Shown here piece by piece: positions 941 through 30,783 of a DNA stretch of 64,000 nt (its first letter is position 1; each line of letters starts with the position of its first letter). Both the position numbers and the translations under genes were made by a program. Source of the DNA: Clarias gariepinus (lineage: Eukaryota); assembly GCF_024256425.1 (NCBI RefSeq), contig NC_071110.1, forward strand, positions 2,252,274 through 2,316,273, written 5' to 3'. Under the pieces are notes generated by a model. It made no database searches. It was not told the origin of the DNA and saw nothing but the letters and a program-made list of their open reading frames with translations.

Positions 941-2082
941 CCATTTTGCACATCCACACACATGGTTTTGCACTCACTGTGGACATTCTGAACATTCACT
1001 TACACTAGTGGCCACTGCACAACTACACATTCGTGGACATTAGTTAAATTACCCAATTACAAGTCACTTTAAATACGTCACTTTCAAGGATATTTGCACA
1101 CCCCCTGGATGTTCTGTTACCCGGATGCACAAGTCACTTTAAACACTTTAAATATGTGACATTTCCATTTATATTCAATTTATTTTCAACTTCATTCCCA
1201 AACAAAAAGTCCATAAATTCTATATCTCTGTATTGTACAGCTGTTTCTTATTTTCTATCTATATATATTTTTTCATATATGTTTCTTATATTGTATATTT
1301 TGTACTGTACTGTACAGTTATGTTATTTTATTTTAATTTGATATTATTCTTTCTTAGTTAAATGTACTTTTTTTTTCTATTCATAGTCTTTTATTTTAAA
1401 ATCAGGGGCAGTTCTCTAAGCATTTTACTGTGTATGACTTTGTATGTGACAAATAATATTTAAATTTAAAAACATATTTTATTTTGTGTTCGGAAGCGCG
1501 TGTGTACAGCGCGTGTGTACAGCTCGTGTACTGTTTCTTATAACACACGTGTGTGCACGCGCGAGTAAAGCAAAAGAAATTCTCAATACAGAGGTGAAAA
1601 AATCCATCTTCTTCCTCAGCTCATCGCTATGTGCGTGTGTGTGCACGCACGTAATTTGACACTGTGCTGTTTCACAAATACTCTTTTGCCTTAATGTCTG
1701 TGTGTGTGTGTGTGTGTGTTTGTAAAGCGGAGGGGGGGTTTAGGGGGTGCTTTATACACACATAAAGACGCACACACTCTTCTCTACACAGAAATTCTGC
1801 TCTGTCGTGAGAGGTAAAGTGCGGTTTATTTGTTTTTTTGTTTTACTTTACAGCAGTGTGGGAGAGAGAGGTTGATTTATGACGGCTGTTTACAGAAGTG
1901 TAGTCCAGTGCGGGAGATGCATTGTAGGTCACGCGAATGCAAGATGTAAGCTTGGATATAGGCTGTTACGCTGTCACAAGCAACATAAAAATAAAGCGGA
2001 GAAGCTTTAATAATTTTAAAGAGAACAACAGCTCGGAGCCGGGAAATCCGTATGCGTGGAGTAATTGCAGAGGCGTGGAGAT

Positions 2083-2260
2083 GCGCCGTAGTAGAGAAAA
2101 CAAGAGCATGGGTCTGAGCCATAAAATCCGTCAGCGTGGCGCCAATGCCGAGACGTTAGGATAAGCCGTAGTCGAGTGAGCGCGAGCGTGGGTCCGAGCC
2201 ATGAAATCCGTCAGCGTGGTGTCAGTGCTGAGTCGTGAGGCTGGGCCGTAGTTGGGAAAC
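2083..2260. repeat. ~80-bp minisatellite, ~2.3 tandem copies
   Basis: Unit gccgtagt(a/c)gag...gagc(g/a)tgggtc(t/c)gagccat(a/g)aaatccgtcagcgtgg(c/t)g... is repeated head-to-tail. Confidence 0.5.
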
Positions 2261-5200
2261 GAAACCTAAAGTTCAAAGCCATTAAATCCAAGAGTAGTAA
2301 TAAATCCAGATATGAGACGAGAGGCAAAAACGAGAAACAAAGCGAGGTCAGTAACATGAAAAGAATCATAAATCACTTAGTGGACAATTTATTACACGTC
2401 GTAGCTGGGAAACGTGGAACGTGGGGTGGATCCGTTGCATGGACGAGGGGAGTAGAAGTCGGACTGCACACGGGTTGATTATCCTGGTTATAGTGAAGGG
2501 TCCGATGAACCGGGGGAGAGCTTGCGTGAAAGAGTCTTCAAGGGAATGTCCTTCATGGCGAGCATGGCTCGATCTCCTACACGGTATCTGGGGGCCTTGG
2601 TGCGATGGCGGTCTGCCTGTTTCTTATACAAGGAGCAGGTTTGTAGCAGAGTTCTTCTAGCGCATAGCCACGTTTGCTTGCAGCGGCGGACGAAGTGTTG
2701 GGCTGACGAATTTTCCTGCTCTAGTTCCTGGGCTTTTATTTAAGGTAAAGTAACTGTCTTTTTTCAGCAGAGCCTCTGTTTTACTGAATAATCCAAGATT
2801 TTTCTTGAATATGTAAGACCTATTGACACCTCTAGATGTACCCCCCCCCATACACACAGCAGACCAAATGTCATCAACATGTCCCTCCCCCAAACTCATG
2901 ACTATATGAGTGACGCACGTGCACTGACATGATTTCCCACAATCCCGTAGCACGAAAGAGAGAAAAGCCATTGTGATCATGTGATACTTGGCAGACAAAG
3001 TGCATGCATGAACTTGCTTATTGAAGTTAAAATTTATTACTAATTTTTGCCTGTCTTACAAAGAGCTTGCAGACTAAGTTACTTACAATCCAAGGATACA
3101 CTGTATTAAGGTTATGGTCAAGTATGTGCACTTCTTTTTAAATTTATTTTGTTGTCTTATTGACAATGCTTTATTCAGATTTTTGAAAAATCTACTAAAT
3201 AAACACTTATTCAAAGTGTCTGATAGCTACAGTAAATTATTGTGTTAAAATTATGGAAATATTGTGACAACCGTAATATCCCGAAAGGCGGGAATTTGCA
3301 AAATTAACTTAATCCGAGTACGCCACCCTGGTGGGGCGCCAAGGGAATACTCCCAATAAAGACACACAAGTAAGCTCCATCTATCAAAGGCAAGAATAAA
3401 GATCAACTGAGACATGGGTAGCAATACAAAAGAGATGTTTTTATTTATTAAAAAACCACCAACAACAACAATTTGCACCCAAGAGACACAGAAGCAATAA
3501 ACAAAAATTTATTAATTAAACACTCCTCAGGAGGGGGGAAGGGGAAATGAAACAGAGACTGACAGGACAAAGCAGGGCAGCTGCAGCTTAGAAAATTGTT
3601 CGAAACCCACCCAAATTCACATCAAATTAAATGCCATGCACTCACTACAAGTAGGGATTGTGTTGGTACACTTGCAATTGGTGAAGCACACACCCCAAAC
3701 GCATGCAGCCAGCCTCCCCTGTCCTGCACCGTGCCTGACTCCTGATCAGAACAATAAGAAAAGAAAAAGAACACAACAACAACATGCACACACGCATCGA
3801 AATAGCACAAAATCTACACAATACACACGAAACAATAATCACATCAAACATAAGGAAAAAATATAAACAAACAATTTCACAGACTCAATAGTATATAGAG
3901 CACCAAGTCGTCTCCCAGTCCTATATACGACCGAGATCGGTGCCTAAACGCACCAAATTAACATAACAAAAAAGGACAACAACAACACAAACATTCGCGC
4001 CGTCACCACATAATACACAGAGCAGACATGCAAAACAATCGGCCACACAAAACAAGAATAAAAGCCAATCAAACACTTACCCTGCCACAATATTATAGCC
4101 CCCATAATGGTAAATTGTGCTTATAATTTGTGATTATGCTTGTGACTGTTGAATCTAATTATGTCAATGTAGGATCAGCAAATATGTTTGTCGATTTACG
4201 GTGGTGGCCAAAGGTATTGAGACACATGTTTACATAAAATTCTCAAACTATAATAAAAAAATAATTGTAATTTTATGCAGTGAAATGGCATTAAAACAAT
4301 CAATATTTGGTATAAAGAGAAAGATCTATAGGTGACTTATGCAACTTACAGAATTGCAACTAAAGACACGCACTGTGGTACTGAGAGAAGACAAAATAAT
4401 GAGATGAAAGACTGTGTGAAAGTGCTGAATGAAGCAAACAAAGAGTCCACAAAGACAGTACAAGTCAAGGCAAGGCCAGGGTACGAAGAGTCATTTCCAG
4501 AAAAGCTTTTCCAACTTTTAGTCCGAATTGTTCTGTTTCACTTGAAACTTTGTGCACTTCTTGGGCTCTTAATAAGAATAGTTTGTTTGTCTACTTATAT
4601 AAAAATTATTATTATTATTATTATTATTATTACTTTTAATCTTTGTTACACAAATGATAGGAAACTTATTTTAAATGACAAATCTAATTACATCCATTTT
4701 ATGTTATTATACAATATTTCATGATGTGGTATGATGTATTATACAGTATTATATTATGTATGACAATATTGCACATTGCACAATGTATATTTATTTGATA
4801 CTATACTGTATCCGTATACTGTATAACACACACTTCTCTCACTAGGGTGAATTCACCTGCTCTTATATATTGTACATTACAGTAAAGGAGTGTCGGCGGT
4901 TTGTTTCTGTAATGTCCGGAAATGTGAAGTGAATCTGCATCGAGAAGCGCAACACTGTAACGCGTTAGTAAGTCTCTGATTATCCTGCGCTAGTGTTTCT
5001 TATCATTTCCACAAACTGTTAAATGATATGTGTTATGCGTGGCTCAGTTTATTTGTTTATTAGTGTTTGCCGAAAAGAATTCGATTTGAAGTGAAGCTGG
5101 AGTTATAAAGTCAGTGTGTAGGTTACTGGTTAGTTAGTTAGTGTCAGTATCTGAACCAACACTTCTTGTGTGCTGTCGAAACATATGACGTCATCAAGAA

Positions 5201-5462
5201 GAAAGTTAAAGGGGAGATGAAAGATGAAAACAGATCCATCCATAAAGCACAGAAATGAGTTTTTCATGAGTTTCATGTTTATTTGTCATGTGTGTAAAAG
5301 TCAGTGACAGTTTTATATAAAAATGCTTGTTGTTAAGCAAATAATAAAATAGATCAGAAGGGAGAGAGAGTTTGTTTACAAATACAATATGTATGTACAA
5401 AATGTGCAGATCTTATTCTAAATAAATATTTATAAATATTTGTTTTTACAGACATAAACACA

Positions 5463-5467
5463 AACAT
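5463..5467. other. Target-site duplication (AACAT), 5' copy of BEL/Pao insertion
   Basis: AACAT lies immediately 5' of the 5' LTR and again immediately 3' of the 3' LTR at 13302-13306. Confidence 0.55.
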
Positions 5468-6043
5468 TGTAAATGTCAGAGATGTGTGTGTTCATATTTA
5501 TACAAAAATTCATTTATATTTGAGTTCATTTGTTTGTAAAATGCTTGATTCATTAATATGATATTCATTGTCATAAAAAGGGTTGATGTTTCTTTAAGAA
5601 AATCCATACTTGAAGTAACAGGTCACTTGTTGTGCATGGAAACCATGGCATTATGGGTAGTACATATATGAAGGCAGAAACGCACATGCTCTACAGCCTG
5701 AAAAGAGAGACGTTTTATCTGCATGGTCTAAGGGCGCACACGGTAATTTATGTTTAACTCTGTTACATTGTGTGTTTATTTTGTGTTCATATCTATTTAT
5801 GTAACAGTGTTTGAAAATTGTGTACATTGAATCAAGTTTTGGACACACGTGTACTTGTATGTCAGTGGACATTCAAATTGAGAGACTGTGAAAAGAGATG
5901 CATGTTTAAATATGCTTATGTTTGCCTTTTGTAGTTTTCACGGTGTCCGCTGAAGAGAGGGAGAGAGAGTCAGAGTTAAATAAACAGCAAAATGACATCA
6001 GTATGAAGCGTGGCTATCATTTTATTAGACCAGTGCAGCTACA
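5468..6043 (+). repeat. 5' LTR (576 bp)
   Basis: Direct repeat of 12725-13301. It starts TGTAAATGTCAG and ends ...CAGTGCAGCTACA. An AATAAA lies near its 3' end. Confidence 0.8.
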
Positions 6044-6547
6044 GTGAAAACGTAACGCCATCACAGTCCACAGCTTGAGGTATTGAACGGCATCGCGTCG
6101 GAGAAGGCACGGCAAGATCGCGGGTGCATCACGTTGAAAAAGACGTCGGAGAAAGACGGAGACACGAGCAGACGCATCACGTCGGAGAAGAGGCCATTTT
6201 ACAGCTAAGGTCAAAAGTACTGCATCGCAACCAGTAGAGGGCGACATTCTTCCGCGGAGATTACAGCCTTTCAGGTATCCTTTCCAAAAGCTTCAGAGAA
6301 CAGTGTTTATTCCATCTTAGAGTTTGGAAGAGATCAACTCCGCAATCAACTGCAGGTTGGACTGTACCATCTTCACATCTACACCTTTTCTTAAAAAAAA
6401 AAAGAGAAGACTGTTTACTGCTTTAATTGGTTTACTATTACAACCTTTCGAATGTTTATGCTTTAGCAGTAATATTATTGTGAAATGTGCTAAGAGTACT
6501 TTTGATCTATGAGTAATTACTTTAAAGTGCTTTGGTAAGCGTTTACA

Positions 6548-9500
6548 ATGTCATTCCATGGGGGAAAATCACAGTGTGGTGAATCAAAAGAGCAAACTGC
6601 GAATATTCAAGCAGAGTTGATTAGACTAACTGAATTATTAGAATCTCAAACTAATGACATAGAAAGGAAAAGATTAGAGTCCCTCATAGGTGATATGCAC
6701 TCTAAGATACAGTCACTTAAAACAGTAATGATCGAATCTACTGCTGTTACTTCAGGAAGAGATGAACCCAGGAAGTCTTCACGAGAGAGAAAGTTAACTC
6801 CAAAAATGCAGGAGCTTAAACAGCAAGATGTTTCTCAAAAGGAGAACAAATTTATCAAGTTGTATGTGAGCTGGAAAGAACAAATTAAAGCTGCACGTGC
6901 CAAAATTAAGTGTGAGTGCTCTGACCAAGACTTAAGTGACCTGATGGATAGTGTAGAAGGAATGGAAACTCAAGTTAAAGATGTGTATGAGCTTATAAGA
7001 TCTCAATCAGTTCCTTCTACTGAGATGCGAAGAAAAATGGATTCTTGTACAGCAGTAACATCAGATATAATGGGTTTAATGAAGGTGCGAATGAGTGAAG
7101 TGGGCCTAGACGAATTTGATGCTGATGCAGAAGATGCAAGAATTCGTATGGTGCTTGACAAAGAATATGCTCAGTCAGTGTACTCATCCACGGGCCCTAG
7201 GTCTATTCGTAGTCACCGTTCAAACAGCTCAGTAGACCAGCAAAGCATCACTGCAAAAAGAGCAGAGTGTGCCGCCCAGTTGGCTGCAAAGCAGGCAGAA
7301 ATAGAGATGGAGGAGGCTATCGCAAATCAAAGGCTAGAACTTAAAAGACTGGAGAATCAGAGAGATCTTCAAGTAATAGCTGCAAAACTCAAAGTGTACT
7401 CTGAAGTTGATTCAGCTGAGTCCAGTAAGGATAGTGTAGCAGCAAGCCGCGAGGTACCAAATTGTCCTTTAGCAGCTTCTAAGGAAATAAAAAAAGAACA
7501 AGCATGTAAGACAGACAATGAGAGACAGACAAACCATGCTAGCAGTGAAGCATCAATAGTACAAGCCTTACATGACACAATGGTTCTTAGTAGACTGCCT
7601 GCACCAGAGCCCTCAGTTTTCTCAGGGGACCCACTCAAGTTCTTAGAGTGGAGAACAAGTTTCAAGGCATTAATAGAGCGGCGATGCACAAATCCAGCTG
7701 ATAAGTTGTTCTACCTACAGAAATATGTCAGTGGTGAGGCACAATCTGTTTTGGAAGGAAGCTTCTACAGAAAGGATGATGAAGCGTATGATCAAGCGTG
7801 GGAAGCACTGAATTCCCGATATGGCCATTCATTCGTAATCCAGCGTGCGTTTAGAGAAAAACTAAACAACTGGCCAAAGATTGGTTCGAGAGAGTCTGTC
7901 AAACTGAGACAATTCAGTGATTTTCTAACAGCCTGCAGCAATGCCATACCACATATCAAAGGCCTTCAGGTGTTAAACGACTGTGAAGAAAATCAGAAAA
8001 TGCTACAAAAACTCCCCGATTGGCTGACATCTCGTTGGAATCGGCATGTTACAGTACAGCTGCGACAATTAGAGGAATACCCTACTTTCAAGGAGTTTGC
8101 TGATTTCGTGGCACAAGAAGCGGAAATAGCATGTAATCCTGTAACATCTTTTAATGCCCTTAAGCTTACTGAAGACAAGTCATCTAGAGAACTTAAGCGC
8201 TCAAAGGCTAATGCATTCTTCACTAATGTGAAGGCATCAGACAAATCAAAAATAGTGACAAAGACATACAATGTAGGAGTAAGAAACTCAGTGGAATCAA
8301 ACAGTGCCAATAAAATCAACACTGTCCCTTCAGTTTCAAACCCAGTCACTTGCAGGTGCTGTGGGGAAAGTCACTCCATTCACAAATGTCAAACGTTTGA
8401 CAGCAAGTCTGTGGAAGACAAAAGAAAGTTCATATTAGACAATAATCTGTGCTTTGGCTGTCTTAGGAGAGGACACAACTCAAAGGATTGCAGGAGCAAA
8501 GCAACTTGTAGTATATGCAAGAAACGTCATCCTACAATACTTCACGAAGACCGCCCATCTCCTGCAGCTGTCACATTTCAGCATGCTATGCAAGTAGAAC
8601 AGAACACGTCTTCTCTTTCTTGTAGCGTTGAGAGTGGTGATGGTGGGAGTACATCGATGATAGTGCCTGTATGGATTTCTTCAACTTCCACTCCTGAAAG
8701 GGAGACCTTAGTTTATGCCCTTCTGGATACACAGAGCAGCAACACCTTCGTGGATAAAGAATTATGTGAGAGGATGGGTGCAATTGCAGAGCCAGTCAAG
8801 TTAAAACTTACCACAATGATGGGAAGGGATTCTATAGTTCAAAGTAAAAGAGTAAGTGGGCTCAGAATTAGAGGGTTTACCTCCCATGGCTTAATAAGTT
8901 TGCCACCTGTCTATACCAGAGACTTCATTCCACTTGAACGTTCTCATATCCCTACCTCAGAAACCGCTAGAAGGTGGAATCATCTGAAAGAAATTGCTCA
9001 GGAAATCCCAATGCTGCTGGATTGTAAAGTAGGACTCCTGATAGGTTACGATTGCTCAAGAGCCTTGGCACCACGTCAAGTCATCACAGGAGGCAATGAC
9101 GAACCGTATGCCATCAGGACAGATTTGGGTTGGAGCATAGTTGGCTCTTCGCACCACATTGCAAAGTCAACTGAAGTCACAGGCCTGTGTCATCGTGTAT
9201 GTGTCAAGGAAGTCCCAATACTGACACCAGCTTCCATCATCAGAGCTCTTGAGTCAGACTTTAGAGAAACAAGTCCAAGGGATAGAAGCATTTCACAAGA
9301 TGACATACAATTCACACAACTTTTGAATGACAAAATTCACAAGAACTCGGAGGGACACCGTGAGATGCCCCTCCCCTTTAAGACACGGCCACAGTTACCT
9401 GAAAATAAGCAGCTGGCTCTGGTGCGTTTGAAGCGCTTGAAAGGAAAATTTGAGAAAGACCAAAAATTTAAGGATGATTATGTCAAATTCATGGCAGACG

Positions 9501-12500
9501 TCTTCAAGGATGGTGATGCAGAGAGAGCCAAACACCAACCTAAGGAAGGAAACGCTTGGTATATACCTCATCAGGGAGTATATCACGCTAGAAAGCCAGA
9601 GAAGATTAGGGTTGTGTTTGATTGCTCTGCCAAATATGGCGGCACTGCATTAAATGATCACTTGTTGACTGGACCTGATCTCATTAATGGGTTAACAGGG
9701 GTGCTCTGCAGGTTTCGCAAATACCCAATCACAGTTATCTGTGATGTAGAAAGAATGTTCCACAGGTTTCATGTGAGCCAGGAAGATAGAGACTACTTAC
9801 GGTTCCTGTGGTGGGAAAATGGCGATACAAACTCCGAGCCAAAGGAGTATCGCATGAAAGTCCATCTTTTTGGCGCAGCATCCTCTCCTGGCTGCGCAAA
9901 TTATGGAATGAAGTATCTTGCATGTCAGAACGAAAGAGAATACCCTGCAGCAGCCAGTTTCATCAAAAGTAATTTCTACGTTGATGATGGGCTCATCAGT
10001 GTGGAAAAGGTGGATGAAGCTATAAGATTAGTACAAGAAGCCCGAAATGTGTGTGCAAAAGGGAAATTACGTCTGCACAAGTTCATCTCAAATGACAGGA
10101 AAGTCATGGAGTCTATCCCTGTCAGTGAGCGAGCCAGTGAAATCCAGGATGTGGAGATCGGTTCTGATGAATTCCCAGTCCAGACAGTGTTGGGAGTTAG
10201 ATGGAATGTAAATAGTGACACCTTTTCATTTAAAGTAGCCTTGGATGACAAACCAGCAACGCGCAGAGGAATCCTCTCAACAGTTGCATCTGTGTTTGAT
10301 CCGTTAGGCTTCCTGGCTCCCTTCATCCTATTAGGAAAGAAAGTTCTACAGGAGATGTGCCAAAGGGGGTTTGAATGGGATGATCCACTCCCCAAAGAGT
10401 TGATGCCACAATGGACCAGCTGGATAAATGATTTGAAGAACCTGCAAAATCTCCAGATTGCAAGATGCTTTGCTCCTGACTCACTAGGGAATGTCCAGAG
10501 GATCGAACTCCATCACTTTTCAGATGCGAGTAGCCATGGCTATGGTCAGTGCTCATATATACGAGTGTTGAGTGAAGACAAAGTCCACTGCTCCTTTGTC
10601 TTCGGAAAGGCAAGGGTTGCACCCACCAAAATTGTGACAATACCTAGACTTGAGTTAACCGCTGCCGTGATCTCTTCAGCGGTGAGTAGCATGTTAAAAG
10701 AGGAGCTGGAGCTTAAAATTGACGCAGAATACTTTTGGACTGATTCAAAGGTAGTCTTGGGCTACATTAACAATGAAGCCCGTAGGTTTCACGTTTTTGT
10801 AGTGAATAGAGTACAAAGAATCAGAGAGACGACTGACCCTGCACAGTGGCATTATGTAGAGACACAGCAAAACCCTGCGGATCATGCTTCCAGGGGTCTC
10901 AAAGTGTCAGAGTTGATCAACTCGAATTGGCTTACTGGACCCAAGTTTCTCTGGGAAAGAGAAATTGTAACAACAGAAACAGCTCCAGAGCTTCTGATTG
11001 GCGACCCTGAAATCAGGGCAACGCAAGTGCTACAAACAGAGGTAGCAAACAATGAAAACTTTCTGGAGAGGTTTCGTCGATTTTCAAAATGGCACACTGC
11101 ATTGAAAGTTGTAGCTCGTATTCAGCAAGTTGCAAGAGACAAGTCAGCTAAACCCATTAATGTTGAAGACATGAGAAATGCTGGCATCAGGCTTGTACAA
11201 TTGGCACAAAGAGATGCCTTCAAGGATGAGATACAAATACTGAGACATGGCAAATTACCACATGGTAATCCATTGTTCCAACTTGACCCAGTACTGCAAG
11301 ATGGTGTTCTCAGGGTGGGAGGACGTTTGAAGAAAGCTTCCTTACCTCTTGACTTGAAGCACCCAGCAATCCTCCCAAGAGATAGTGTGATTACTTGTCT
11401 CATTGTTGATTACTGCCATGAAAAGACTCAACACCAAGGCAGAGGACAGACGCTTAATGAATTGAGAGCAAGTGGTTACTGGGTTGTCGGAGGCAGTAAA
11501 GTTGTGGCAAACCACCTTAAGCAATGTGTGACATGCAGGAGAGCTCGTAGGCCATTAGAGACACAGAAGATGGCAGATCTTCCTGCTAACCGTGTTGACC
11601 CCTCTCCACCGTTCTCATACTGCGGGATGGATTGCTTTGGGCCATTTCTCTGTAAGCAAGGGCGGAAGGGGCATAAGAGATATGGGCTTATATTCACCTG
11701 TTTCTCCTCAAGAGCAATCCACATAGAGATGCTGGAAGATCTAACAACTGATGCCTTCATAAATGCCTTGCGATGCTTTATAGCTATCCGTGGAGCTGTA
11801 AGAGAAATAAGATCGGATCAAGGGACAAATTTTGTTGGGGCGAAAAATGAGCTGACAAAGGCTTTGGAAGAATTAGACCATGAGAGATTGACCGCTTACC
11901 TATCCCAGAAACAATGTGACTTCATTTTGAATGTACCTGATGCCAGTCACATGGGAGGGGTTTGGGAAAGGCAGATCAGAACAATTAGAAACGTTTTAAG
12001 TTGGGCCCTTTCTCAGAGCACTGGAAGATTGGATGATGCATCCTTGAGAACTTTCTTCTACGAAGCCATGTCAATCATAAACAGTCGCCCACTCACCACA
12101 GATACCATCAATGATCCCAAGGGGCTAGAGCCACTTACACCAAACCATTTACTCACCATGAAATCCTCTGTCCCTCTACCTCCACCTGGGAAATTTGTGC
12201 CAGAAGACCTGTATGTGAGGAAAAGGTGGCGAAGGGTACAATATCTGACACAGCAATTTTGGAGTAGATGGAAGAAGGAATACCTGACAAACATCACTCT
12301 CAGACAACGATGGCACTCTCCAAGACGAAATGTCAAGGTTGGAGATGTTGTGATTCTCAAGGAGGAAGAGGTTCCCCGCAATGAATGGAGACTTGGACGA
12401 GTGATTGCTGTTTGTGCAGATGAAGACGGACTGGTGCGAAAGGCCAAAATTCAAATGGGAAGTAGGAAGTTAGGGAAAAAAGGTCAACGACTGACCAATC

Positions 12501-12556
12501 CATCAATTCTGGAACGTCCTGTTCATAAACTAGTGGTACTTGTAGAGAAAACCTAG
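6548..12556 (+). CDS. Gag-Pol polyprotein of the BEL/Pao element (2002 aa, uninterrupted)
   Basis: Three CCHC zinc knuckles lie near nt 8350-8550 (CRCCGESHSIHKC, CFGCLRRGHNSKDC, CSICKKRHPTILHE). A protease-like LLDTQSSNTFV lies near nt 8725. RT motifs are FGAASSPGCANY and FYVDDGLIS near nt 9980. RNase H HFSDASSHGYG lies near nt 10520. Integrase has an HHCC finger (H..H..C..C, nt 11415-11545) and DDE residues (CGMDCFGPF, SDQGTNF). Confidence 0.85.
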   Translation: MSFHGGKSQCGESKEQTANIQAELIRLTELLESQTNDIERKRLESLIGDMHSKIQSLKTVMIESTAVTSGRDEPRKSSRERKLTPKMQELKQQDVSQKENKFIKLYVSWKEQIKAARAKIKCECSDQDLSDLMDSVEGMETQVKDVYELIRSQSVPSTEMRRKMDSCTAVTSDIMGLMKVRMSEVGLDEFDADAEDARIRMVLDKEYAQSVYSSTGPRSIRSHRSNSSVDQQSITAKRAECAAQLAAKQAEIEMEEAIANQRLELKRLENQRDLQVIAAKLKVYSEVDSAESSKDSVAASREVPNCPLAASKEIKKEQACKTDNERQTNHASSEASIVQALHDTMVLSRLPAPEPSVFSGDPLKFLEWRTSFKALIERRCTNPADKLFYLQKYVSGEAQSVLEGSFYRKDDEAYDQAWEALNSRYGHSFVIQRAFREKLNNWPKIGSRESVKLRQFSDFLTACSNAIPHIKGLQVLNDCEENQKMLQKLPDWLTSRWNRHVTVQLRQLEEYPTFKEFADFVAQEAEIACNPVTSFNALKLTEDKSSRELKRSKANAFFTNVKASDKSKIVTKTYNVGVRNSVESNSANKINTVPSVSNPVTCRCCGESHSIHKCQTFDSKSVEDKRKFILDNNLCFGCLRRGHNSKDCRSKATCSICKKRHPTILHEDRPSPAAVTFQHAMQVEQNTSSLSCSVESGDGGSTSMIVPVWISSTSTPERETLVYALLDTQSSNTFVDKELCERMGAIAEPVKLKLTTMMGRDSIVQSKRVSGLRIRGFTSHGLISLPPVYTRDFIPLERSHIPTSETARRWNHLKEIAQEIPMLLDCKVGLLIGYDCSRALAPRQVITGGNDEPYAIRTDLGWSIVGSSHHIAKSTEVTGLCHRVCVKEVPILTPASIIRALESDFRETSPRDRSISQDDIQFTQLLNDKIHKNSEGHREMPLPFKTRPQLPENKQLALVRLKRLKGKFEKDQKFKDDYVKFMADVFKDGDAERAKHQPKEGNAWYIPHQGVYHARKPEKIRVVFDCSAKYGGTALNDHLLTGPDLINGLTGVLCRFRKYPITVICDVERMFHRFHVSQEDRDYLRFLWWENGDTNSEPKEYRMKVHLFGAASSPGCANYGMKYLACQNEREYPAAASFIKSNFYVDDGLISVEKVDEAIRLVQEARNVCAKGKLRLHKFISNDRKVMESIPVSERASEIQDVEIGSDEFPVQTVLGVRWNVNSDTFSFKVALDDKPATRRGILSTVASVFDPLGFLAPFILLGKKVLQEMCQRGFEWDDPLPKELMPQWTSWINDLKNLQNLQIARCFAPDSLGNVQRIELHHFSDASSHGYGQCSYIRVLSEDKVHCSFVFGKARVAPTKIVTIPRLELTAAVISSAVSSMLKEELELKIDAEYFWTDSKVVLGYINNEARRFHVFVVNRVQRIRETTDPAQWHYVETQQNPADHASRGLKVSELINSNWLTGPKFLWEREIVTTETAPELLIGDPEIRATQVLQTEVANNENFLERFRRFSKWHTALKVVARIQQVARDKSAKPINVEDMRNAGIRLVQLAQRDAFKDEIQILRHGKLPHGNPLFQLDPVLQDGVLRVGGRLKKASLPLDLKHPAILPRDSVITCLIVDYCHEKTQHQGRGQTLNELRASGYWVVGGSKVVANHLKQCVTCRRARRPLETQKMADLPANRVDPSPPFSYCGMDCFGPFLCKQGRKGHKRYGLIFTCFSSRAIHIEMLEDLTTDAFINALRCFIAIRGAVREIRSDQGTNFVGAKNELTKALEELDHERLTAYLSQKQCDFILNVPDASHMGGVWERQIRTIRNVLSWALSQSTGRLDDASLRTFFYEAMSIINSRPLTTDTINDPKGLEPLTPNHLLTMKSSVPLPPPGKFVPEDLYVRKRWRRVQYLTQQFWSRWKKEYLTNITLRQRWHSPRRNVKVGDVVILKEEEVPRNEWRLGRVIAVCADEDGLVRKAKIQMGSRKLGKKGQRLTNPSILERPVHKLVVLVEKT

Positions 12557-12724
12557 AGTCAATCTGATTGAAAAGGCTGTTCTTTAGAGTGTTAAGTGTC
12601 ACAAGTTAAACTAGAAGTTTTGAACCAAAAGCTATACTGTATGGTTCAAATTTTTGGTTTGTGAAATTACTAAATTTATTTAAACATTGACAACGTTCAT
12701 CATAAATTAGTAATTTGGTGGGAG

Positions 12725-13301
12725 TGTAAATGTCAGAGATGTGTGTGTTCATATTTATACAAAAATTCATTTATATTTGAGTTCATTTGTTTGTAAAATG
12801 CTTGATTCATTAATATGATAGTCATTGTCATAAAAAGGGTTGATGTTTCTTTAAGAAAATCCATACTTGAAGTAACAGGTCACTTGTTGTGCATGGAAAC
12901 CATGGCATTATGGGTAGTACATATATGAAGGCAGAAACGCACATGCTCTACAGCCTGAAAAGACAGACGTTTTATCTGCATGGTCTAAGGGCGCACACGG
13001 TAATTTATGTTTAACTCTGTTACATTGTGTGTTTAATTTTGTGTTCATATCTATTTATGTAACAGTGTTTGAAAATTGTGTACATTGAATCAAGTTTTGG
13101 ACACACGTGTACTTGTATGTCAGTGGACATTCAAATTGAGAGACTGTGAAAAGAGATGCATGTTTAAATATGCTTATGTTTGCCTTTTGTAGTTTTCACG
13201 GTGTCCGCTGAAGAGAGGGAGAGAGAGTCAGAGTTAAATAAACAGCAAAATGACATCAGTATGAAGCGTGGCTATCATTTTATTAGACCAGTGCAGCTAC
13301 A
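12725..13301 (+). repeat. 3' LTR (577 bp)
   Basis: It differs from the 5' LTR by two substitutions and one 1-bp indel, so identity is ~99.5%. It is preceded by a purine-rich GGTGGGAG (PPT-like). Confidence 0.8.
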
Positions 13302-15403
13302 AACATCTTTGTTGCTTCTGATTATTTCTCCTCTCACGACTTCTCCCTGTAATTATAGGGTGGTTTTCAGCTTAAACTCGTCTACACTCGTGCCTTGTAA
13401 GCCGAACGAGTCAGGCCTTAATCAGTCTGAGCTCGTTTACTATTTATAGAGCATTTTCCAATAAATTTAATATTACCTTTTGTTTCATTACGTATTGTAG
13501 GATTACAAATTTATAAAATGTTAAATCTAGCCTCCAACATAACAGTATATAAACTGAACAAGTTATGTACATTGGGTTTTACATTTTAAGGTAAAGTTGG
13601 TGACATTCTAAGAAGATCAAGTCTTGTACCCCAGGTGTCAGAGACATTAACCTTTTGTCTTTATGTACTTCCTGACCACTGGGTAGGGTCCCAAAGTCAA
13701 TGTGAATGCTAATCTCAAGGCCAGGCTATGCCTTTGTCTCTATGAGAATGTAAAGGTTTGGGTGATACTGTCAGGCTGATTAGATTAGCACCTATGCATT
13801 TAAAAGCCACTGTTATGCTGATGAGATCAGGGCTGGGGAACTTCCGTTACCAGGCTGACTCCTGTACTAGACTATGCTTTGTTTAGATTGTCTCCACCTC
13901 TTTGTATCCCTCCCTCTTGTAAAGTATAAACTCTCCAGAGCGACGTTTTTTCGGTCAGACTTTGATGACTACAGCGACGCTCGGCGAGTTCTCAATAAAG
14001 AGTCATTTCTGCTTGAATGATATCCCAACGTCTCCTGGTCTCTGAAAAAGTTCCCAACAGTATCATAAGCAACTCCATGTCTGGACATTGTCACAAGATC
14101 TTCCTGCCCTGTATACAGGATAAAGTGGTATAGGTGATAAGTGAGTGAGTAAGTGACTGAGAGTGGTAAAAAAAAAAAAAATTCTTACTTAAATAAACCT
14201 ATGCCGCTCATTTTAAAGTAAAATCATAATTTAGTCAGTAGCTCAGAGACAAGTTTTAAAATATACTGTAGCATACAACAGAAACAGTTTAATGATTTTC
14301 TTGTTCCATTTGTTTGCCCTAGCTGGTGTGTTGTTGTTTTTTGCTTTTAAACTAAATATTGGAAATAAAAATATCAGCAAAACAAGTTATCCTTACTTGT
14401 ACAGGCTCAGATACATATCCTACACATAAGTTAGTAAACTTTTAGGACATAAAGTGAAATATTTATGAGAAAGACAATATAAAAGTTTTGTGCGGATTGG
14501 TAAACGTTTGCTTGCACGGTAAACTGGAAGGACCAGAGTTATGCAATACCAGAGAAGAAAGAACACACAGGGATTAGTGTCTGTTATTAAGTGCATGACA
14601 TGACCGTGAAGCTATACAAGCTAATAGTCCTCATTAGTTATGCTTTAGCTAATGATGATGTATAAAATCTCAGGACTGACACAGATACACTGATGGTGCC
14701 TTAAACAAGATATTTAACCCTTAATCGTGCTACTGACTTAATTCTGCTTTTGGATAAATACTCAATACTGCCTGATGACTTTATGAAGGTAAAAAATGAC
14801 CTATTGGCCTTCTTTAAATTTACTCACTGTTTTGTGAATATGTAAATACATTTGATTTTATTTATTGGCTTGACATTGATTCAATTGTATCTTTTTTTTT
14901 TTTTGTTATTCCTCAATTTCAAATGTATAATATTTATGACACTCATACAAGTTAAACACCCAAAAAATAATGTGTAGTTTATAAGTGATTGAACAAAGCA
15001 CAAGGAAAGATGATACTTAAAGTCAACACTTCAATAGAGTTTGTGGCGTCAATTGCTGTGTGAATCAAGAGTGCAAAAGTTTGTGTAACTCTCAGACAAA
15101 ATGAAGATGATGCTTATTTGATTTAAGATTTCATTTATTTTCTTTTATTTTATATTTTTGTATTATTTTAGGAGATAATTGTGAAGCACTACGGTGCATT
15201 TTCTACAAACATTTGCATTTACCCATATTGCTCTGTCAGGTAAACAAAGTCCAAAGGTCTCCACCACTCCCTTCATTGTGCCATTGATTACGTTTCATGT
15301 AATGACAGCACACACTCACTCAAAGCAAACACACTGGCTATATAACCTCTGCTCTTTCTTTCTACTCTTCAGAAACTCTTAGAAAAAAAAAGCTCCTTCA
15401 GAA

Positions 15404-15952
15404 ATGAGGGAAGTCGCGCCGCTCCAGCCGGACCCGAGCCCTGATATGGAGGCTCAGCATAACTCACGCTGCACTGGTCCGAGTCTGGAGAACCAGATCC
15501 TCACCCAGGCCCCATTGTTCCTCCTCCAGCCTCCTTCATGGGCGAACCTGACCTTGTCATGTCCAGCTCTCCGTCCATCCAGCCTGTCCTCTACAGCCTC
15601 GTCCTCTTCTCTGCTGTCCACCTCATCCAGCCTGTCCTCTACAGCCTCGTCCTCTTCTCTGCTGTCCACTTCATCCAGCCTGTCCTCCACAGCCTTGTCC
15701 TCTACCCTTTTGTCCAGCCTGCTGTCCTCCTCTCTGCTCAGCACTGAGAACACTCAGTTGATTTCTAACCCCATTACTGGATCTTCTTTCTGCTCTTCCC
15801 AACCTCTGAGTTTACTGGTTCACAGCACAGCGCCACCCACTGGCCCAGAAGCTCATAAATGTCTCAGTGGTGATCCTGGAGAGACAAAAATAGAGGATGA
15901 TGAAGTGTGCTCCACTGATGATCTCTCGTCATACAGTGAGGAGCTAAATGAG
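15404..15952 (+). CDS. tep1: TEP1 first coding exon (ATG at 15404; S/L-rich N-terminal repeats)
   Basis: ORF from ATG to a GTATG donor at 15953, ending in phase 0. It contains a 48-bp (16-aa) tandem repeat of ~2.7 copies at 15586-15725. Mammalian TEP1 also begins with N-terminal tandem repeats. A 5' UTR exon further upstream is possible. Confidence 0.5.
15586..15725 (+). repeat. 48-bp tandem repeat (~2.7 copies) inside TEP1 exon 1, coding a 16-aa S/L-rich repeat
   Basis: tccagcctgtcctctacagcctcgtcctcttctctgctgtccac(c/t)tca occurs twice exactly, followed by a partial copy. It also creates the spurious antisense ORF 15454-15753. Confidence 0.8.
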
Positions 15953-17861
15953 GTATGTTTTTGCATCAGCTTTAATAATATCCTTAGAAGGTTTATGCAT
16001 TATTTTAAAGACAGGACAGGATTGCTTTTTATTTAAATGTGGGATCAGTGATTTCTTTCGAATTATTAAATTTCTTTTAACCTTTAACAAAATTCTTGCT
16101 AAAACTTCAAGCCACTTATAGTCCACATTCCACAAGGAGGCGTCTCTACTTGGATCTACTTTGGATTTATCTACACTGATTTTTTTTTTTTTCAAAACTA
16201 TGAAATAACATATAGAGCATTAGGCAATTAAGTAACAACAACAGCAACAGTTAGTTGTTATATTAAGACACGAAGGTCAGCTGTTCTGGAACAGTTCTTG
16301 CAAGACCAGTATTGTTAAGTGCATTTGCAAAACCCATCAAGCTCCATGACAAAACTGTCTCTTATGAAGACCTTTCCAAGACCAAAACTGAGCTCTGCTG
16401 CAGAGGAGAAGTTAATTTAGAGTCACCAGCCTCAGAAATCACCAATTAACAACCAGCACCTCAGATTAGAGCCGTTATGAAGCTTTACAGAGCAGAAGTA
16501 GCAGATATACATCTCAATATCAACTGTTCAGAGGAGATTATTGTGTATTTTGGGCGCCCTTTTGGATTGCTCTACAAAGAAATAAAAAACAGGAAAGACC
16601 ATGGATTTATAGGAAGTTTTGAATGGTAGTACAAGTCAACTATTATTATCAACATGTTGCTCCTGAAAATAAAAAGGTCACCTTGATGTAACCACAAGTA
16701 ATGAAACATAACCATTTGTTTCTTTATATTATAGTACCATGAAGTTGTTTGGGATTAATGATACATTTATCACTAGTATCAAGACATTGCTTCAGAGTAT
16801 TATAACATCACTTTGTAGTAATAACTTGCGCTGTAGTATCATTAAGTTGCTTCAGAGAATAATAAGTTATTTTTGAGCTATGATGCCAGCAGTACAAATA
16901 TATTGCTTTTTTGGGTTATGATGTATTGCTCAGGTGTACCAGTAAGGCACTCAGAAGTACCAATAATTCTTTCCAGTGTATTATTATTTTCCTCTGGAGT
17001 AATTATATAATTCAATGAATCATTCTGAAGTCAATCTGGAGTAATGATAATTTGCTCAGTACAAAAATTTAGTTACTTATACTGGTGCCATGATATGAAC
17101 AAAATTAGAATTTGTTTTGGAGTATTATATTTCTTAGTTGTTTCCCAGAAGTAACACTAAGTATGCTTTCTGAAATACTGTTGGGTCAACCCAGAGTCCC
17201 TGTTAGTCATGCTACATGTCTAATTTCCATCTGAGTAACTATACTCAGACTATAAATAGACTGAATTAAACTAACTATAAGTCACTCTTGAACAACCCTG
17301 TCTGCTTCTTCTAAATCGCTTCCATTCAGAGAACTGAAAATATTAATAATATAATATGTCATAAAACCAAATATTATAACAGTTGCAAATAAAAAAGGCC
17401 ACACACAGTGCATCTATCCCAGGTTTAAAGAGTGAAATAATTTGTTATCCAATTAGTGTTAATTTTGTCAACAAAAATAATGATGAAAAATATTTGTTGT
17501 AGACATTATTTCCTGGGACTAAGACGAGACGTCAGGGACATTAGTGAACAATAACAGTGATGAAAGCAGCATGCAATATCGGCTACGAAAAAGGACGAGA
17601 CTAAAATGTGGTTTAAAAAATAAAAAAAATACAGTGTAACCTTGGAATACGAGCATAATTCGTTCCGGGAAGCGGGCTTGTATTTCAAAACACTTGTTAA
17701 TCAAATTGAATTGTCCAATAAGAAATAATGGAAACTCAAATTATTTGTTCCACAACCCAAAAAAAAAAAAAAAAAACTACACAAAATATAAAGAAAAAAA
17801 ATTAAACAAATTAACCTTTACTTTTGAAAAGAATCGCAACAGAGCAGTGTTTCCATTAGAA

Positions 17862-29880: not shown

Positions 29881-30021
29881 CTATAAATAGTTTTTGAGGA
29901 ATTACATTATTTAAAAAAAGTAATTATAAACCAAATATAATTTTTTATTGCTTATTTTTCTCTGAAAGTTAGAGTCTGTGGCAGTAAAAAAGCTTACACA
30001 TTGTCCTCATTCCGTTGTCAG

Positions 30022-30313
30022 GTGGCGTAGCGTGCGTGTCTTCATCTCGTCTACGTTCAGAGACATGCACGGCGAGCGAGACGTCCTGGTCCGCAGTGTT
30101 TTCCCGGAGTTACGGCGGCGAGCGGCTTCCCTCTGCCTCCACCTGCAGGAGGTGGACCTGCGCTGGGGCGTCACTGAGGAGGAATCGGCACGCGCCGCTG
30201 AGATCTGCCTCAGGGAGGTCTGTCGCTCCCATTTGCTGCTGGGAATTCTGGGAGAGAGATACGGCCTGGTGCCTCCTCGGCCCTTGCTGCCTGACCTGCC
30301 TCACTACAGCTGG
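30022..30313 (+). CDS. tep1: TEP1 exon 18 (DUF4062 region)
   Basis: Encodes [35 protein letters not shown]...[14 protein letters not shown]...[13 protein letters not shown]...LPHYSW, matching human [36 protein letters not shown]...[14 protein letters not shown]...GILGSRYGYIPP...HPHFHW. Confidence 0.85.
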
Positions 30314-30783
30314 GTAAGGAAGAGAAAAGAAAAAGTCTTTACTAATCATTGTAATGAGTTATTTACTGACTATTTATTCATGTTGGATTTTAATTGCTGC
30401 GATATTCTGTAGGATGGGTTCTGCTCACAAATCCACATGTTAGTTTTGTAATTTTTGTAATTTAATACAAAATATTTGCTATTGGCTCTGTTGCTTATTG
30501 ATAAATCCACTACAGCTCTAAGTTTATTGATTTGGCTTGATATTTTATCCTTCCTTCAAAATACTTACTACACTTTTTGTAGTTTTTATTTAGAACAGTA
30601 GTGCACAGGCAATATTATTATCATTACACACTTTTTTTTTTTTACTTTTTATTTATGCTATATGTGCTTTTTATTACAATTGTTTTATTTTGGATTTATA
30701 TTGAAGTTGTATGTGATGTAATTTTATAAATGATGTTACGTATAAAATATAAAGATTTATAGCTTTTTAATTGTGTGTGTCAG

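What the first reader, a model, noticed from the sequence alone, without database searches (positions are those of the whole stretch)
5463..13306. Structurally intact, apparently young BEL/Pao LTR retrotransposon
Its two LTRs differ at only 3 positions in 576 bp (two substitutions and one 1-bp indel). The single 2002-aa Gag-Pol ORF has no stop or frameshift and keeps all canonical domains: three CCHC knuckles, PR, RT with YVDD, RNase H, and an HHCC-DDE integrase. A 5-bp AACAT target-site duplication flanks it. Alternatively, if the LTR ends TA rather than CA, the duplication is the 7-bp CAAACAT. Near-identical LTRs and an unbroken 6-kb ORF together indicate a recent insertion. The element may still be transposition-competent. 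That is uncommon for BEL/Pao copies in vertebrate assemblies.
Basis: partly seen in the sequence, partly recalled or inferred. Interest (0 to 1): 0.6.

Follow-up and report, generated by a model that had tools for sequence, protein, structure and literature searches.

The report
Young intact self-priming BEL/Pao retrotransposon
This is a complete, recently inserted BEL/Pao retrotransposon in a fish genome, which is ordinary for fish, but it and its relatives lack the expected tRNA primer site and appear to start DNA synthesis from the folded-back 5' end of their own RNA.

Summary
Two LTRs (5468-6043 and 12725-13301) differ by two substitutions and one 1-bp indel. A 5-bp AACAT target-site duplication flanks them. 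One uninterrupted 2002-aa Gag-Pol ORF (6548-12556) carries every BEL/Pao hallmark.

The copy looks undegraded. It departs from only 3 of 427 highly conserved columns, all conservatively. Estimated age is about 0.2-0.7 Myr.

The rarity claim fails. Thirteen annotated relatives from ten other fish species and an oyster all have intact ORFs of about 2000 aa. Their LTR pairs are 98.3-100% identical.

One result was unexpected. No tRNA-type primer-binding site follows the 5' LTR. The first 8 nt after it (GTGAAAAC, 6044-6051) are the exact reverse complement of GTTTTCAC (5934-5941). That motif sits in an invariant LTR island at the likely transcription start.

In relatives both sites change together. 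I found 19 distinct complementary pairs, and RNAalifold recovers the helix on its own. A blind scan hit 19 of 62 metagenome loci against 13 of 310 shuffles.

This is the architecture of Tf1/sushi self-priming. The ICTV profile describes BEL/Pao as tRNA-primed, and I found no report of self-priming in this superfamily. The transcription start and primer cleavage are inferred, not shown.

The parts
5463..5467 (+). 5' target-site duplication AACAT
   Evidence: Identical to 13302-13306. Relatives also have 5-bp duplications.
5468..6043 (+). 5' LTR (576 nt, TGT...ACA)
   Evidence: It is 99.5% identical to the 3' LTR.
5733..5745 (+). Invariant U3 island GGCGCACACGGTA; function unknown, possibly a promoter element
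   Evidence: Invariant in the LTR alignment of five elements from five fish orders, where most of the LTR does not align.
5905..5912 (+). TATA-like TTTAAATA, 22-29 nt upstream of the self-primer motif
   Evidence: It is not conserved as a clear TATA box in all relatives, so support is weak.
5934..5941 (+). Putative self-primer GTTTTCAC, the inferred 5' end of the transcript (A5933 or G5934); exact reverse complement of 6044-6051
   Evidence: It lies in an invariant 15-nt island, AGTTTTCACGGTGTC. Complementarity and covariation are shown.
5942..5947 (+). Helix 2, 5' strand GGTGTC, immediately 3' of the putative primer cleavage site
   Evidence: RNAalifold pairs it with 5994-5999. Two of its six pairs covary.
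5979..5984 (+). Polyadenylation signal AATAAA, which places the R/U5 border near 5995-6010
   Evidence: Conserved as AAATAAA in all five aligned LTRs.
5994..5999 (+). Helix 2, 3' strand GACATC
6044..6059 (+). Primer-binding site. GTGAAAAC (6044-6051) pairs with 5934-5941. The block GTGAAAACGTAACGCC is conserved in the closest clade. There is no TGG, so it is not complementary to a tRNA 3' end.
6548..12556 (+). Single Gag-Pol ORF, 2002 aa, stop codon included
7619..8047 (+). Gag capsid-like domain (Pfam DUF1759, aa 358-500)
   Evidence: E = 4.5e-12.
8351..8545 (+). Triple Cys-His box (aa 602-666): CX2CX3HX4C, CX2CX4HX4C, CX2CX3HX4H
   Evidence: It matches the Pao-type pattern given in PMC554778.
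8702..9055 (+). Protease (aa about 719-836): LLDTQS with D727, and LIG at 831
   Evidence: D727, Q729 and S730 are invariant in 28 relatives.
9707..10078 (+). Reverse transcriptase core (Pfam RVT_1, aa 1054-1177; YVDD at 1144)
10259..10747 (+). RT connection and RNase H (Pfam 'Peptidase_A17', aa 1238-1400; DAS at 1326, E1369, D1399)
11399..11968 (+). Integrase: HHCC zinc domain (aa 1624-1663) and catalytic core D1695-D1757-E1807, spacing D(61)D(49)E
12221..12541 (+). Integrase C-terminal domain (Pfam DUF5641, aa 1892-1998)
   Evidence: E = 7.3e-26.
12717..12724 (+). Polypurine tract GGTGGGAG, abutting the 3' LTR
   Evidence: The context ...TAATTTGGTGGGAG|TGTAA is conserved in relatives.
12725..13301 (+). 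3' LTR (577 nt)
13302..13306 (+). 3' target-site duplication AACAT

Best explanation
The feature is a full-length autonomous BEL/Pao LTR retrotransposon. Its motifs and integrase spacing are Sinbad-like. It inserted into a unique, non-coding site of a teleost genome less than about 1 Myr ago, and nothing needed for another round of retrotransposition appears to be missing.

Proposed cycle:
1. RNA polymerase II starts in the 5' LTR at about 5933/5934 and terminates after the AATAAA of the 3' LTR.
2. The RNA is translated into one Gag-Pol polyprotein, which the element's own protease (DTQ variant) cuts.
3. Inside particles, the first 8 nt of the RNA (GUUUUCAC) fold back onto the site just downstream of U5 (GUGAAAAC, 6044-6051). 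A second helix, GGUGUC with GACAUC, stacks on this duplex.
4. RNase H cuts after C5941. The released 3'-OH primes minus-strand DNA synthesis. This is self-priming, as in Tf1/sushi elements, in place of a tRNA primer.
5. The polypurine tract at 12717-12724 primes the plus strand.
6. The HHCC/DDE integrase inserts the DNA and makes a 5-bp duplication.

Shown here: all sequence parts, their intactness, the complementarity between the two sites, and its covariation across the lineage. Inferred: the transcription start, the RNase H cut, and actual activity.
For: Identity and intactness:
- Anatomy.
- Pfam domains.
- Every catalytic or zinc motif equals the consensus of 80 relatives.
- Only 3 conservative departures at 427 highly conserved columns, against a median of 5 in relatives.
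- The two LTRs differ by 2 substitutions in 576 nt, which gives 0.17-0.7 Myr at 1e-8 to 2.5e-9 substitutions per site per year.
- None of the three LTR differences falls in a conserved island.

Self-priming:
- No TGG follows the LTR, so the site is not complementary to a tRNA 3' end. ARAGORN and Rfam find no tRNA or other known RNA family in the region.
- The 8-10 nt immediately after the LTR are the exact reverse complement of an LTR motif 94-175 nt upstream of the LTR end in 11 of 12 genomic elements. The twelfth has 7 nt.
- The two sites change together. Examples are GTGAAAAC/GTTTTCAC, GTGAAAAAC/GTTTTTCAC, GTAAGAGCTG/CAGCTCTTAC, GTAAAACT/AGTTTTAC and GTAAAGAACT/AGTTCTTTAC. There are 19 distinct pairs in all.
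- The chance of such a match per element is 1-2.6% for 8-mers, 0.65-1.05% for 9-mers, and 0 of 2000 shuffles for the 10-mer.
- 7 of 10 pairs show compensatory change, 95 of 96 core cells are paired, and 0 of 500 shuffles reach this.
- RNAalifold on the natural sequences predicts this helix and a stacked second helix without guidance.
- A blind scan hits 19 of 62 metagenome loci against 13 of 310 shuffles, P = 5e-12.
- The upstream arm nearly always begins at the A of a pyrimidine-A-G, as an initiator would, and lies upstream of AATAAA.
Against: - There are no transcript data, so the 5' end of the RNA is inferred.
- The window's duplex is only 8 bp, against 11 bp in Tf1.
- The PBS block conserved in the closest clade (16 nt) is longer than the 8 nt that pair, and the extra 8 nt are unexplained.
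- The overall folding energy of the R-U5-PBS segment is not unusual (z = -0.44).
- For the more distant elements, the LTR partner site was found by searching for the complement. This favours finding one, although its flanking context was not part of the search.
- Competence cannot be proven from sequence. The host genome was not available, so copy number and insertion polymorphism are unknown.
- The protease has Gln in place of the canonical Gly. This is invariant in the lineage, so it is probably tolerated.
Confidence: 0.8

Rival explanations
1. The copy is young and looks intact but can no longer retrotranspose. It could carry an inactivating missense change or a regulatory defect, or it could be permanently silenced.
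For: Sequence alone cannot show activity. No identical protein is on record in the public gene collection. No second copy lies in the window. Three conserved columns differ: L120I, V774I and A1062T.
Against: The three differences are conservative and fewer than the median of relatives. All catalytic motifs, the PPT, the LTR ends, the polyA signal and the primer/PBS complementarity are intact. A 6-kb ORF would not stay open for long without selection or recency.
Confidence: 0.3
2. The complementarity between the LTR motif and the site after the LTR is a structural RNA element, for example for packaging, dimerisation or translation control. The true primer would then be a host RNA such as a tRNA fragment annealing at 6044 onward.
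For: The conserved block after the LTR (GTGAAAACGTAACGCC) extends 8 nt beyond the helix. From memory, GUUUUCAC also occurs in the anticodon arm of tRNA-Glu(UUC). Copia-type elements use tRNA halves (PMC6317226).
Against: The site varies among elements, including elements in related hosts: two cichlid elements carry GTGAAAAC and GTAAGAGCTG. It always varies in step with the element's own LTR motif. A host primer does not predict this. None of the 19 variants begins with TGG. A tRNA-Glu match would be no longer than the 8 nt self-match.
Confidence: 0.12
3. The near-identity of the LTRs does not reflect recent insertion. It would come from LTR-LTR gene conversion or from assembly collapse of two copies.
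For: Gene conversion between LTRs is known in general. The window is a single assembly and read support is unavailable.
Against: The LTRs are not identical; they differ at 3 positions. A perfect 5-bp duplication flanks the element. The internal ORF is also undegraded. The flanks are unique in the window.
Confidence: 0.05

Closest known systems
Sinbad-group BEL/Pao elements: Sinbad of Schistosoma mansoni, related zebrafish elements, and the mollusc Sinbad/Sparrow/Surcouf clades
   Same: - Domain order Gag(triple Cys-His)-PR-RT-RNase H-IN in one ORF.
- YVDD and DAS motifs, and the LIG protease motif.
- Integrase spacing D(61)D(49)E here against D(62)D(49)E in Sinbad.
- Hosts are fish and molluscs.
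   Different: - The protease has LLDTQS, whereas Sinbad has ALLDSGS.
- The best database protein is only 75-76% identical, so this is a distinct family.
- Clade assignment within BEL/Pao was not tested by phylogeny with reference sequences.
- Priming was not described in the Sinbad or mollusc papers.
Tf1/sushi group of Ty3/gypsy elements (Tf1, Tf2, Tj1, sushi-ichi): self-primed reverse transcription
   Same: - There is no tRNA-type PBS.
- The site next to U5 is complementary to a short segment placed where the transcript should begin.
- A second helix adjoins the primer duplex.
- Self-priming is inferred from LTR/PBS complementarity in the same way as for Tj1 (PMC4600332).
   Different: - It belongs to a different superfamily (BEL/Pao, not a chromovirus).
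- The duplex is 8-14 bp, and 8 bp in the window, against 11 bp in Tf1.
- Cleavage and priming have not been shown experimentally here.
tRNA-primed BEL/Pao elements as described in the ICTV Belpaoviridae profile
   Different: The profile states an 18-nt PBS complementary to the 3' end of tRNA-Arg or tRNA-Gly, and replication primed by a host tRNA. This element and its lineage have no such site.
Ty1/copia elements primed by tRNA halves, and TAR-lineage copia elements predicted to self-prime
   Same: They are examples of non-canonical priming in another LTR superfamily (PMC6317226).
   Different: They have a different superfamily and domain order. A half-tRNA PBS is constant for a given tRNA and would not covary with the element's own LTR.

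Membership tests
BEL/Pao (Belpaoviridae) LTR retrotransposons | Two LTRs of 0.2-1.2 kb, total length 4.2-10 kb, short target-site duplication | tested here: met
   LTRs of 576 and 577 nt, element of 7834 nt, 5-bp duplication. Size ranges are from PMC8742986.
BEL/Pao (Belpaoviridae) LTR retrotransposons | Pol domain order PR-RT-RNase H-IN | tested here: met
   PR D727, YVDD 1144, DAS 1326, IN HHCC 1624-1663 and DDE 1695-1807.
BEL/Pao (Belpaoviridae) LTR retrotransposons | Family-specific Pfam domains (DUF1759 Gag, Peptidase_A17 region, DUF5641 integrase C-terminus) | tested here: met
   E-values 4.5e-12, 1.1e-49 and 7.3e-26, all above the gathering scores.
BEL/Pao (Belpaoviridae) LTR retrotransposons | Triple Cys-His box: CX2CX3-4HX4C, CX2CX2-4HX4-5C, CX2-4CX3HX4H | tested here: met
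   aa 602, 635 and 654. The pattern is from PMC554778.
BEL/Pao (Belpaoviridae) LTR retrotransposons | Protease motifs LLDxG and LIG | tested here: inconclusive
   LIG is present at aa 831. LLD is present, but the G is replaced by Q (LLDTQS). This replacement is invariant in 28 relatives down to 41% identity.
BEL/Pao (Belpaoviridae) LTR retrotransposons | Expanded integrase spacing DD(45-53)E | tested here: met
   D(61)D(49)E.
BEL/Pao (Belpaoviridae) LTR retrotransposons | [quoted passage not shown] | tested here: not met
   GTGAAAACGTAACGCC follows the LTR with no TGG. The same holds in all relatives examined. This feature is descriptive rather than diagnostic, so membership stands on the protein evidence.
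Self-primed LTR retrotransposons (mechanism class, type Tf1/sushi) | PBS adjacent to U5 complementary to a segment within the LTR upstream of the polyA signal | tested here: met
   6044-6051 against 5934-5941, 8 of 8 nt. The same holds in 11 of 12 genomic relatives and in many metagenome relatives.
Self-primed LTR retrotransposons (mechanism class, type Tf1/sushi) | The two sites covary between elements | tested here: met
   19 distinct complementary pairs. 7 of 10 pairs show compensatory change, and 0 of 500 shuffles reach this.
Self-primed LTR retrotransposons (mechanism class, type Tf1/sushi) | The complementary segment is the very 5' end of the mRNA | not testable with these tools
   No transcript data were available. 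Indirect support: the arm starts at a pyrimidine-A-G in most variants and lies 38-45 nt upstream of AATAAA.
Self-primed LTR retrotransposons (mechanism class, type Tf1/sushi) | RNase H cleavage of the RNA duplex releases the primer | not testable with these tools
   This needs biochemistry. The RNase H residues DAS/E/D are intact.
Tf1/sushi group (Ty3/gypsy chromoviruses) | Ty3/gypsy-type RT and integrase with a chromodomain | tested here: not met
   Pfam and homologue searches place the protein in BEL/Pao. It works like this group but is not a member.

The most novel reading that the evidence does not exclude
A large lineage of BEL/Pao retrotransposons, found in fishes, an oyster and many unnamed metagenome organisms, replicates by Tf1-like self-priming and not by tRNA priming. 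Self-priming would then operate in a third LTR-retrotransposon superfamily, and the textbook description of Belpaoviridae as tRNA-primed would be incomplete. The window's element would be an intact, testable representative from a vertebrate.
Probability: 0.6. Interest if true: 0.65.

Novelty: new variant of a known kind. Interest (0 to 1): 0.5.

Why it matters
As an insertion it is ordinary. Young, intact BEL/Pao copies are widespread in teleost genomes.

What matters is the priming signal. Small RNAs from tRNA 3' ends and PBS-binding zinc-finger repressors target tRNA-type primer sites, so an element that primes from its own RNA would escape them.

The result would also bear on whether hairpin self-priming is ancestral or recurrently evolved among LTR elements.

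Automated annotators that look for a tRNA PBS will fail to find one in these elements.

The window offers a complete copy with all cis elements intact. It could be rebuilt as a reporter, and compensatory mutations in 5934-5941 and 6044-6051 would test the mechanism directly.

Tried and rejected
- Exact-sequence look-up of the 2002-aa protein found nothing on record.
- Host identification failed. The DUF4062 exon at 29978-30409 (telomerase-protein-component-1-like by the names of some hits) gave best hits of only 88-89%, to unnamed Logan contigs. The host is a teleost, species unresolved.
- Horizontal transfer was considered because the best hits, all about 75%, come from five fish orders. The identity matrix is star-like, 74-78% between all members, so these are old parallel sublineages with no sign of recent transfer.
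- The viral-contig scan found no relatives.
- The tRNA primer was tested and rejected. No TGG follows the LTR, ARAGORN finds no tRNA gene in the window, and Rfam finds nothing above noise in 5400-6700.
- A tRNA-Glu(UUC) 5'-half primer was considered because, from memory, its anticodon loop contains GUUUUCAC. It was rejected because the match would be no longer than the self-match and cannot explain the other 18 variants.
- The overall folding energy of the R-U5-PBS RNA is not significant (z = -0.44). The case rests on covariation, not on energy.
- I ran eight full-text searches: one on BEL/Pao in fish, one on Tf1 self-priming, and six combining priming terms with BEL/Pao names. I also read six relevant papers. 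None reports self-priming in BEL/Pao. Subscription-only papers, such as Frame et al. 2001 and Butler et al. 2001, could not be read.
- Loci L062 and L073 turned out to be large duplications and not LTR pairs. L084 showed no complementary site.
Full report
**1. Observation**

The repeat finder and a pairwise alignment place two direct repeats at 5468-6043 (576 nt) and 12725-13301 (577 nt). They differ at 5564 (T/G) and 5707 (G/C), and the 3' copy has one extra A after 5777. Both begin TGT and end ACA.

AACAT lies immediately outside both ends, at 5463-5467 and 13302-13306. The 5' LTR also ends CTACA before the internal GTG, and eleven related copies all carry 5-bp duplications.

The only long ORF is 6548-12556, 2002 aa with no stop. 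A self-BLAST finds no other copy or solo LTR in the window. The insertion flanks are unique in the window.

**2. What it is**

Pfam matches DUF1759 (Gag), RVT_1, Peptidase_A17, Integrase_H2C2 and DUF5641. This combination is typical of BEL/Pao polyproteins.

The defining motifs listed for Pao-like elements by Copeland et al. (PMC554778) are present:
- A triple Cys-His box: CX2CX3HX4C at aa 602, CX2CX4HX4C at aa 635, CX2CX3HX4H at aa 654.
- LIG at aa 831.
- YVDD at aa 1144.
- DAS at aa 1326.
- Integrase HHCC at aa 1624-1663.
- Integrase spacing D(61)D(49)E, essentially that of Sinbad, which is D(62)D(49)E.

One motif departs. The protease reads LLDTQS instead of LLD(S/T)G. D727, Q729 and S730 are invariant in 28 relatives down to 41% identity. 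The substitution is therefore a property of the lineage and not damage to this copy.

The Pfam 'Peptidase_A17' match covers aa 1238-1400. That is the RT connection and RNase H region, not the protease.

**3. Intactness and age**

I aligned the ORF with 80 full-length relatives. It departs from only 3 of 427 columns that are at least 95% conserved: L120I, V774I and A1062T. The median among relatives is 5.

Two substitutions in 576 nt give 0.17-0.7 Myr, for rates of 1e-8 to 2.5e-9 per site per year. The three LTR differences fall outside the conserved LTR islands.

**4. Is it unusual for a vertebrate?**

It is not. The window is teleost DNA. It holds a DUF4062 exon whose best hits are fish sequences, Tc1/Sleeping-Beauty transposase remnants, a PRY/SPRY exon and many (TG)n runs.

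The protein search returned 120 strong hits, and 80 of them are full-length proteins of about 2000 aa from many teleosts. I fetched 13 genomic copies from ten other fish species and a pearl oyster. Every one has an intact ORF and LTR pairs 98.3-100% identical. Three Triplophysa copies encode the identical protein.

These copies were selected through annotated intact proteins, so the sample is biased. It still shows that such copies are common.

The nearest proteins are only 74-76% identical to the window's ORF. They are equally distant from each other. The window's element is therefore a separate family within an old, bushy clade, and nothing points to recent horizontal transfer.

**5. The primer-binding site**

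The ICTV profile describes Belpaoviridae as primed by a host tRNA through an 18-nt PBS complementary to the 3' end of tRNA-Arg or tRNA-Gly (PMC8742986). In the window, the LTR is followed by GTGAAAACGTAACGCC, with no TGG.

The same block follows the LTR in the Oreochromis, Channa, Triplophysa and Astyanax elements, while the rest of the leader diverges.

An alignment of five LTRs from five fish orders is mostly unalignable but contains invariant islands:
- the LTR ends;
- GGCGCACACGGTA (5733-5745);
- AGTTTTCACGGTGTC (5932-5946);
- AAATAAA (5978-5984);
- a block around GACATC.

GTTTTCAC (5934-5941) is the exact reverse complement of the first 8 nt after the LTR.

**6. Covariation**

In more distant relatives the post-LTR sequence differs, and the LTR motif differs with it:

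| Element | After the LTR | In the LTR |
|---|---|---|
| Carassius, Eleginops | GTGAAAAAC | GTTTTTCAC |
| Astatotilapia | GTAAGAGCTG | CAGCTCTTAC |
| Danio | GTAAAACT | AGTTTTAC |
| Pinctada | GTAAAGAACT | AGTTCTTTAC |

In each case:
- the match starts at the first base after the LTR;
- the LTR partner lies 94-175 nt before the LTR end, upstream of AATAAA wherever a canonical signal is present;
- a T-rich run and an A precede it, and GGTG or GATG follows it.

The flanking context was not part of the search.

Statistical checks:
- The chance of such a match in dinucleotide-shuffled LTRs is 1-2.6% for 8-mers and 0.65-1.05% for 9-mers. It was 0 of 2000 shuffles for the 10-mer.
- On a block alignment, the 8 core pairs are formed in 95 of 96 cells. 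Seven of ten pairs show compensatory change. No shuffle of 500 and no slid control comes close.
- RNAalifold, run on a plain MAFFT alignment of the natural R-U5-PBS segments, predicts the same 8-bp helix. It also predicts a directly stacked 6-bp helix, GGUGUC (5942-5947) with GACAUC (5994-5999), in which two pairs covary.
- When each RNA is taken to start at the motif, the minimum-energy fold closes with this duplex in all 11 elements tested.

**7. Wider sample**

A metagenome scan returned 79 further loci encoding relatives at 35-58% identity.

Where both LTR ends were defined, five of six such loci showed a complementary pair of 7-14 nt, starting 0-4 nt after the LTR.

I then ran a blind scan. 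It required an arm of at least 9 nt, a downstream arm starting GT with CA 0-4 nt upstream, and a spacing of 60-320 nt. It hit 19 of 62 loci, against 13 of 310 shuffles (P = 5e-12). Many contigs lack the relevant region, so 19 of 62 is a lower bound.

Together there are 19 distinct complementary pairs. The upstream arm nearly always begins at the A of a pyrimidine-A-G and ends in AC. The downstream arm always begins GT.

**8. Interpretation**

The primer must anneal directly next to U5, because that position defines the LTR end. This follows from the established mechanism of reverse transcription.

A host RNA primer does not predict that the site should vary between elements, even within related hosts, in step with a motif in the element's own LTR.

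The architecture is that of self-primed elements such as Tf1, Tf2, Tj1 and sushi. In those, the 5' end of the mRNA folds back on the PBS and is cut by RNase H (PMC4600332; PMC6317226).

Self-priming has been described or predicted for the Tf1/sushi and Tcn1 groups of Ty3/gypsy and for the TAR lineage of Ty1/copia. In eight full-text searches and six papers I found no mention of it for BEL/Pao. Older subscription papers could not be read.

I therefore regard self-priming as the most likely mechanism, at about 0.7, for this element and its lineage. The transcription start, the cleavage and the priming itself remain inferences.

**9. Weak points**

- The window's duplex is only 8 bp.
- The conserved block after the LTR extends 8 nt beyond the helix without explanation.
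- The total folding energy is unremarkable.
- No RNA data were available.

**10. Verdict**

The claim of rarity does not stand.

The element belongs to a known superfamily but carries a priming architecture not attributed to that superfamily. This is the part worth following up.

Noticed in passing
window 8726-8737 (aa 727-730): The protease active-site motif is D-T-Q-S instead of D-T/S-G. D, Q and S are invariant in all 28 aligned relatives down to 41% identity. A retropepsin-like protease without the glycine appears to be the norm in this lineage.
   Followed up: partly
window 10259-10747 (aa 1238-1400): The Pfam family named 'Pao retrotransposon peptidase' (PF05380) matches the RT connection and RNase H region, which contains the DAS, E and D residues. 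It does not match the protease at aa 719-836. The family name is misleading for annotation.
   Followed up: partly
window 5733-5745: A 13-nt U3 island, GGCGCACACGGTA, is invariant in LTRs from five fish orders that are otherwise unalignable. It shares CACGGT with the island at 5939-5944. Function unknown, perhaps a promoter element.
   Followed up: no
window 6052-6059: The 8 nt after the 8-bp primer helix (GTAACGCC; GTACCGCC in relatives) are conserved in the closest clade but have no partner in the predicted structure.
   Followed up: no
L003, L004, L005 (Triplophysa dalaica): Three copies on three chromosomes encode the identical 1964-aa protein. Their LTR pairs are 100%, 100% and 99.35% identical, and each has its own 5-bp duplication. 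This family looks currently active in that loach.
   Followed up: partly
L013 (Pinctada imbricata, 2046-3482 and 3' copy): A pearl-oyster element is 53% identical in protein to the fish element. It has 1.44-kb LTRs (99.93% identical) and the same primer/PBS architecture, AGTTCTTTAC/GTAAAGAACT. This fits the mixed mollusc and zebrafish Sinbad/Sparrow/Surcouf clades reported in PMC6238403. Horizontal transfer was not tested.
   Followed up: partly
L065 80-219 and 7135-7265: In this metagenome contig the repeated segment is only 131 nt. It begins 4 nt inside the 14-nt putative primer arm, which starts at 80. This could be a truncated 5' LTR, an assembly chimera, or a hint about the RNA 5' end.
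   Followed up: no
L012 (Danio rerio) 2466-2930 and 9593-10052: The LTRs are 100% identical, but the 3' copy seems to lack the terminal CTACA and no target-site duplication is evident. It may be a recombinant or rearranged copy.
   Followed up: no
window 29978-30409, 40696-41640, 45721-46203 (-), 48339-48743, 63442-63897 (-): Genomic context: a DUF4062 exon (telomerase-protein-component-1-like by the names of some hits), two Tc1/Sleeping-Beauty-type transposase remnants, a Ty3-type RT_RNaseH fragment and a PRY/SPRY exon. Nineteen dinucleotide microsatellites, mostly (TG/CA)n, occur across the window.
   Followed up: partly
window 15404-16033: A 210-aa ORF rich in repeated Ser/Leu motifs (SSTASSSSLLSTSSSL) has no Pfam match. 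It is probably low-complexity sequence and not a gene.
   Followed up: no
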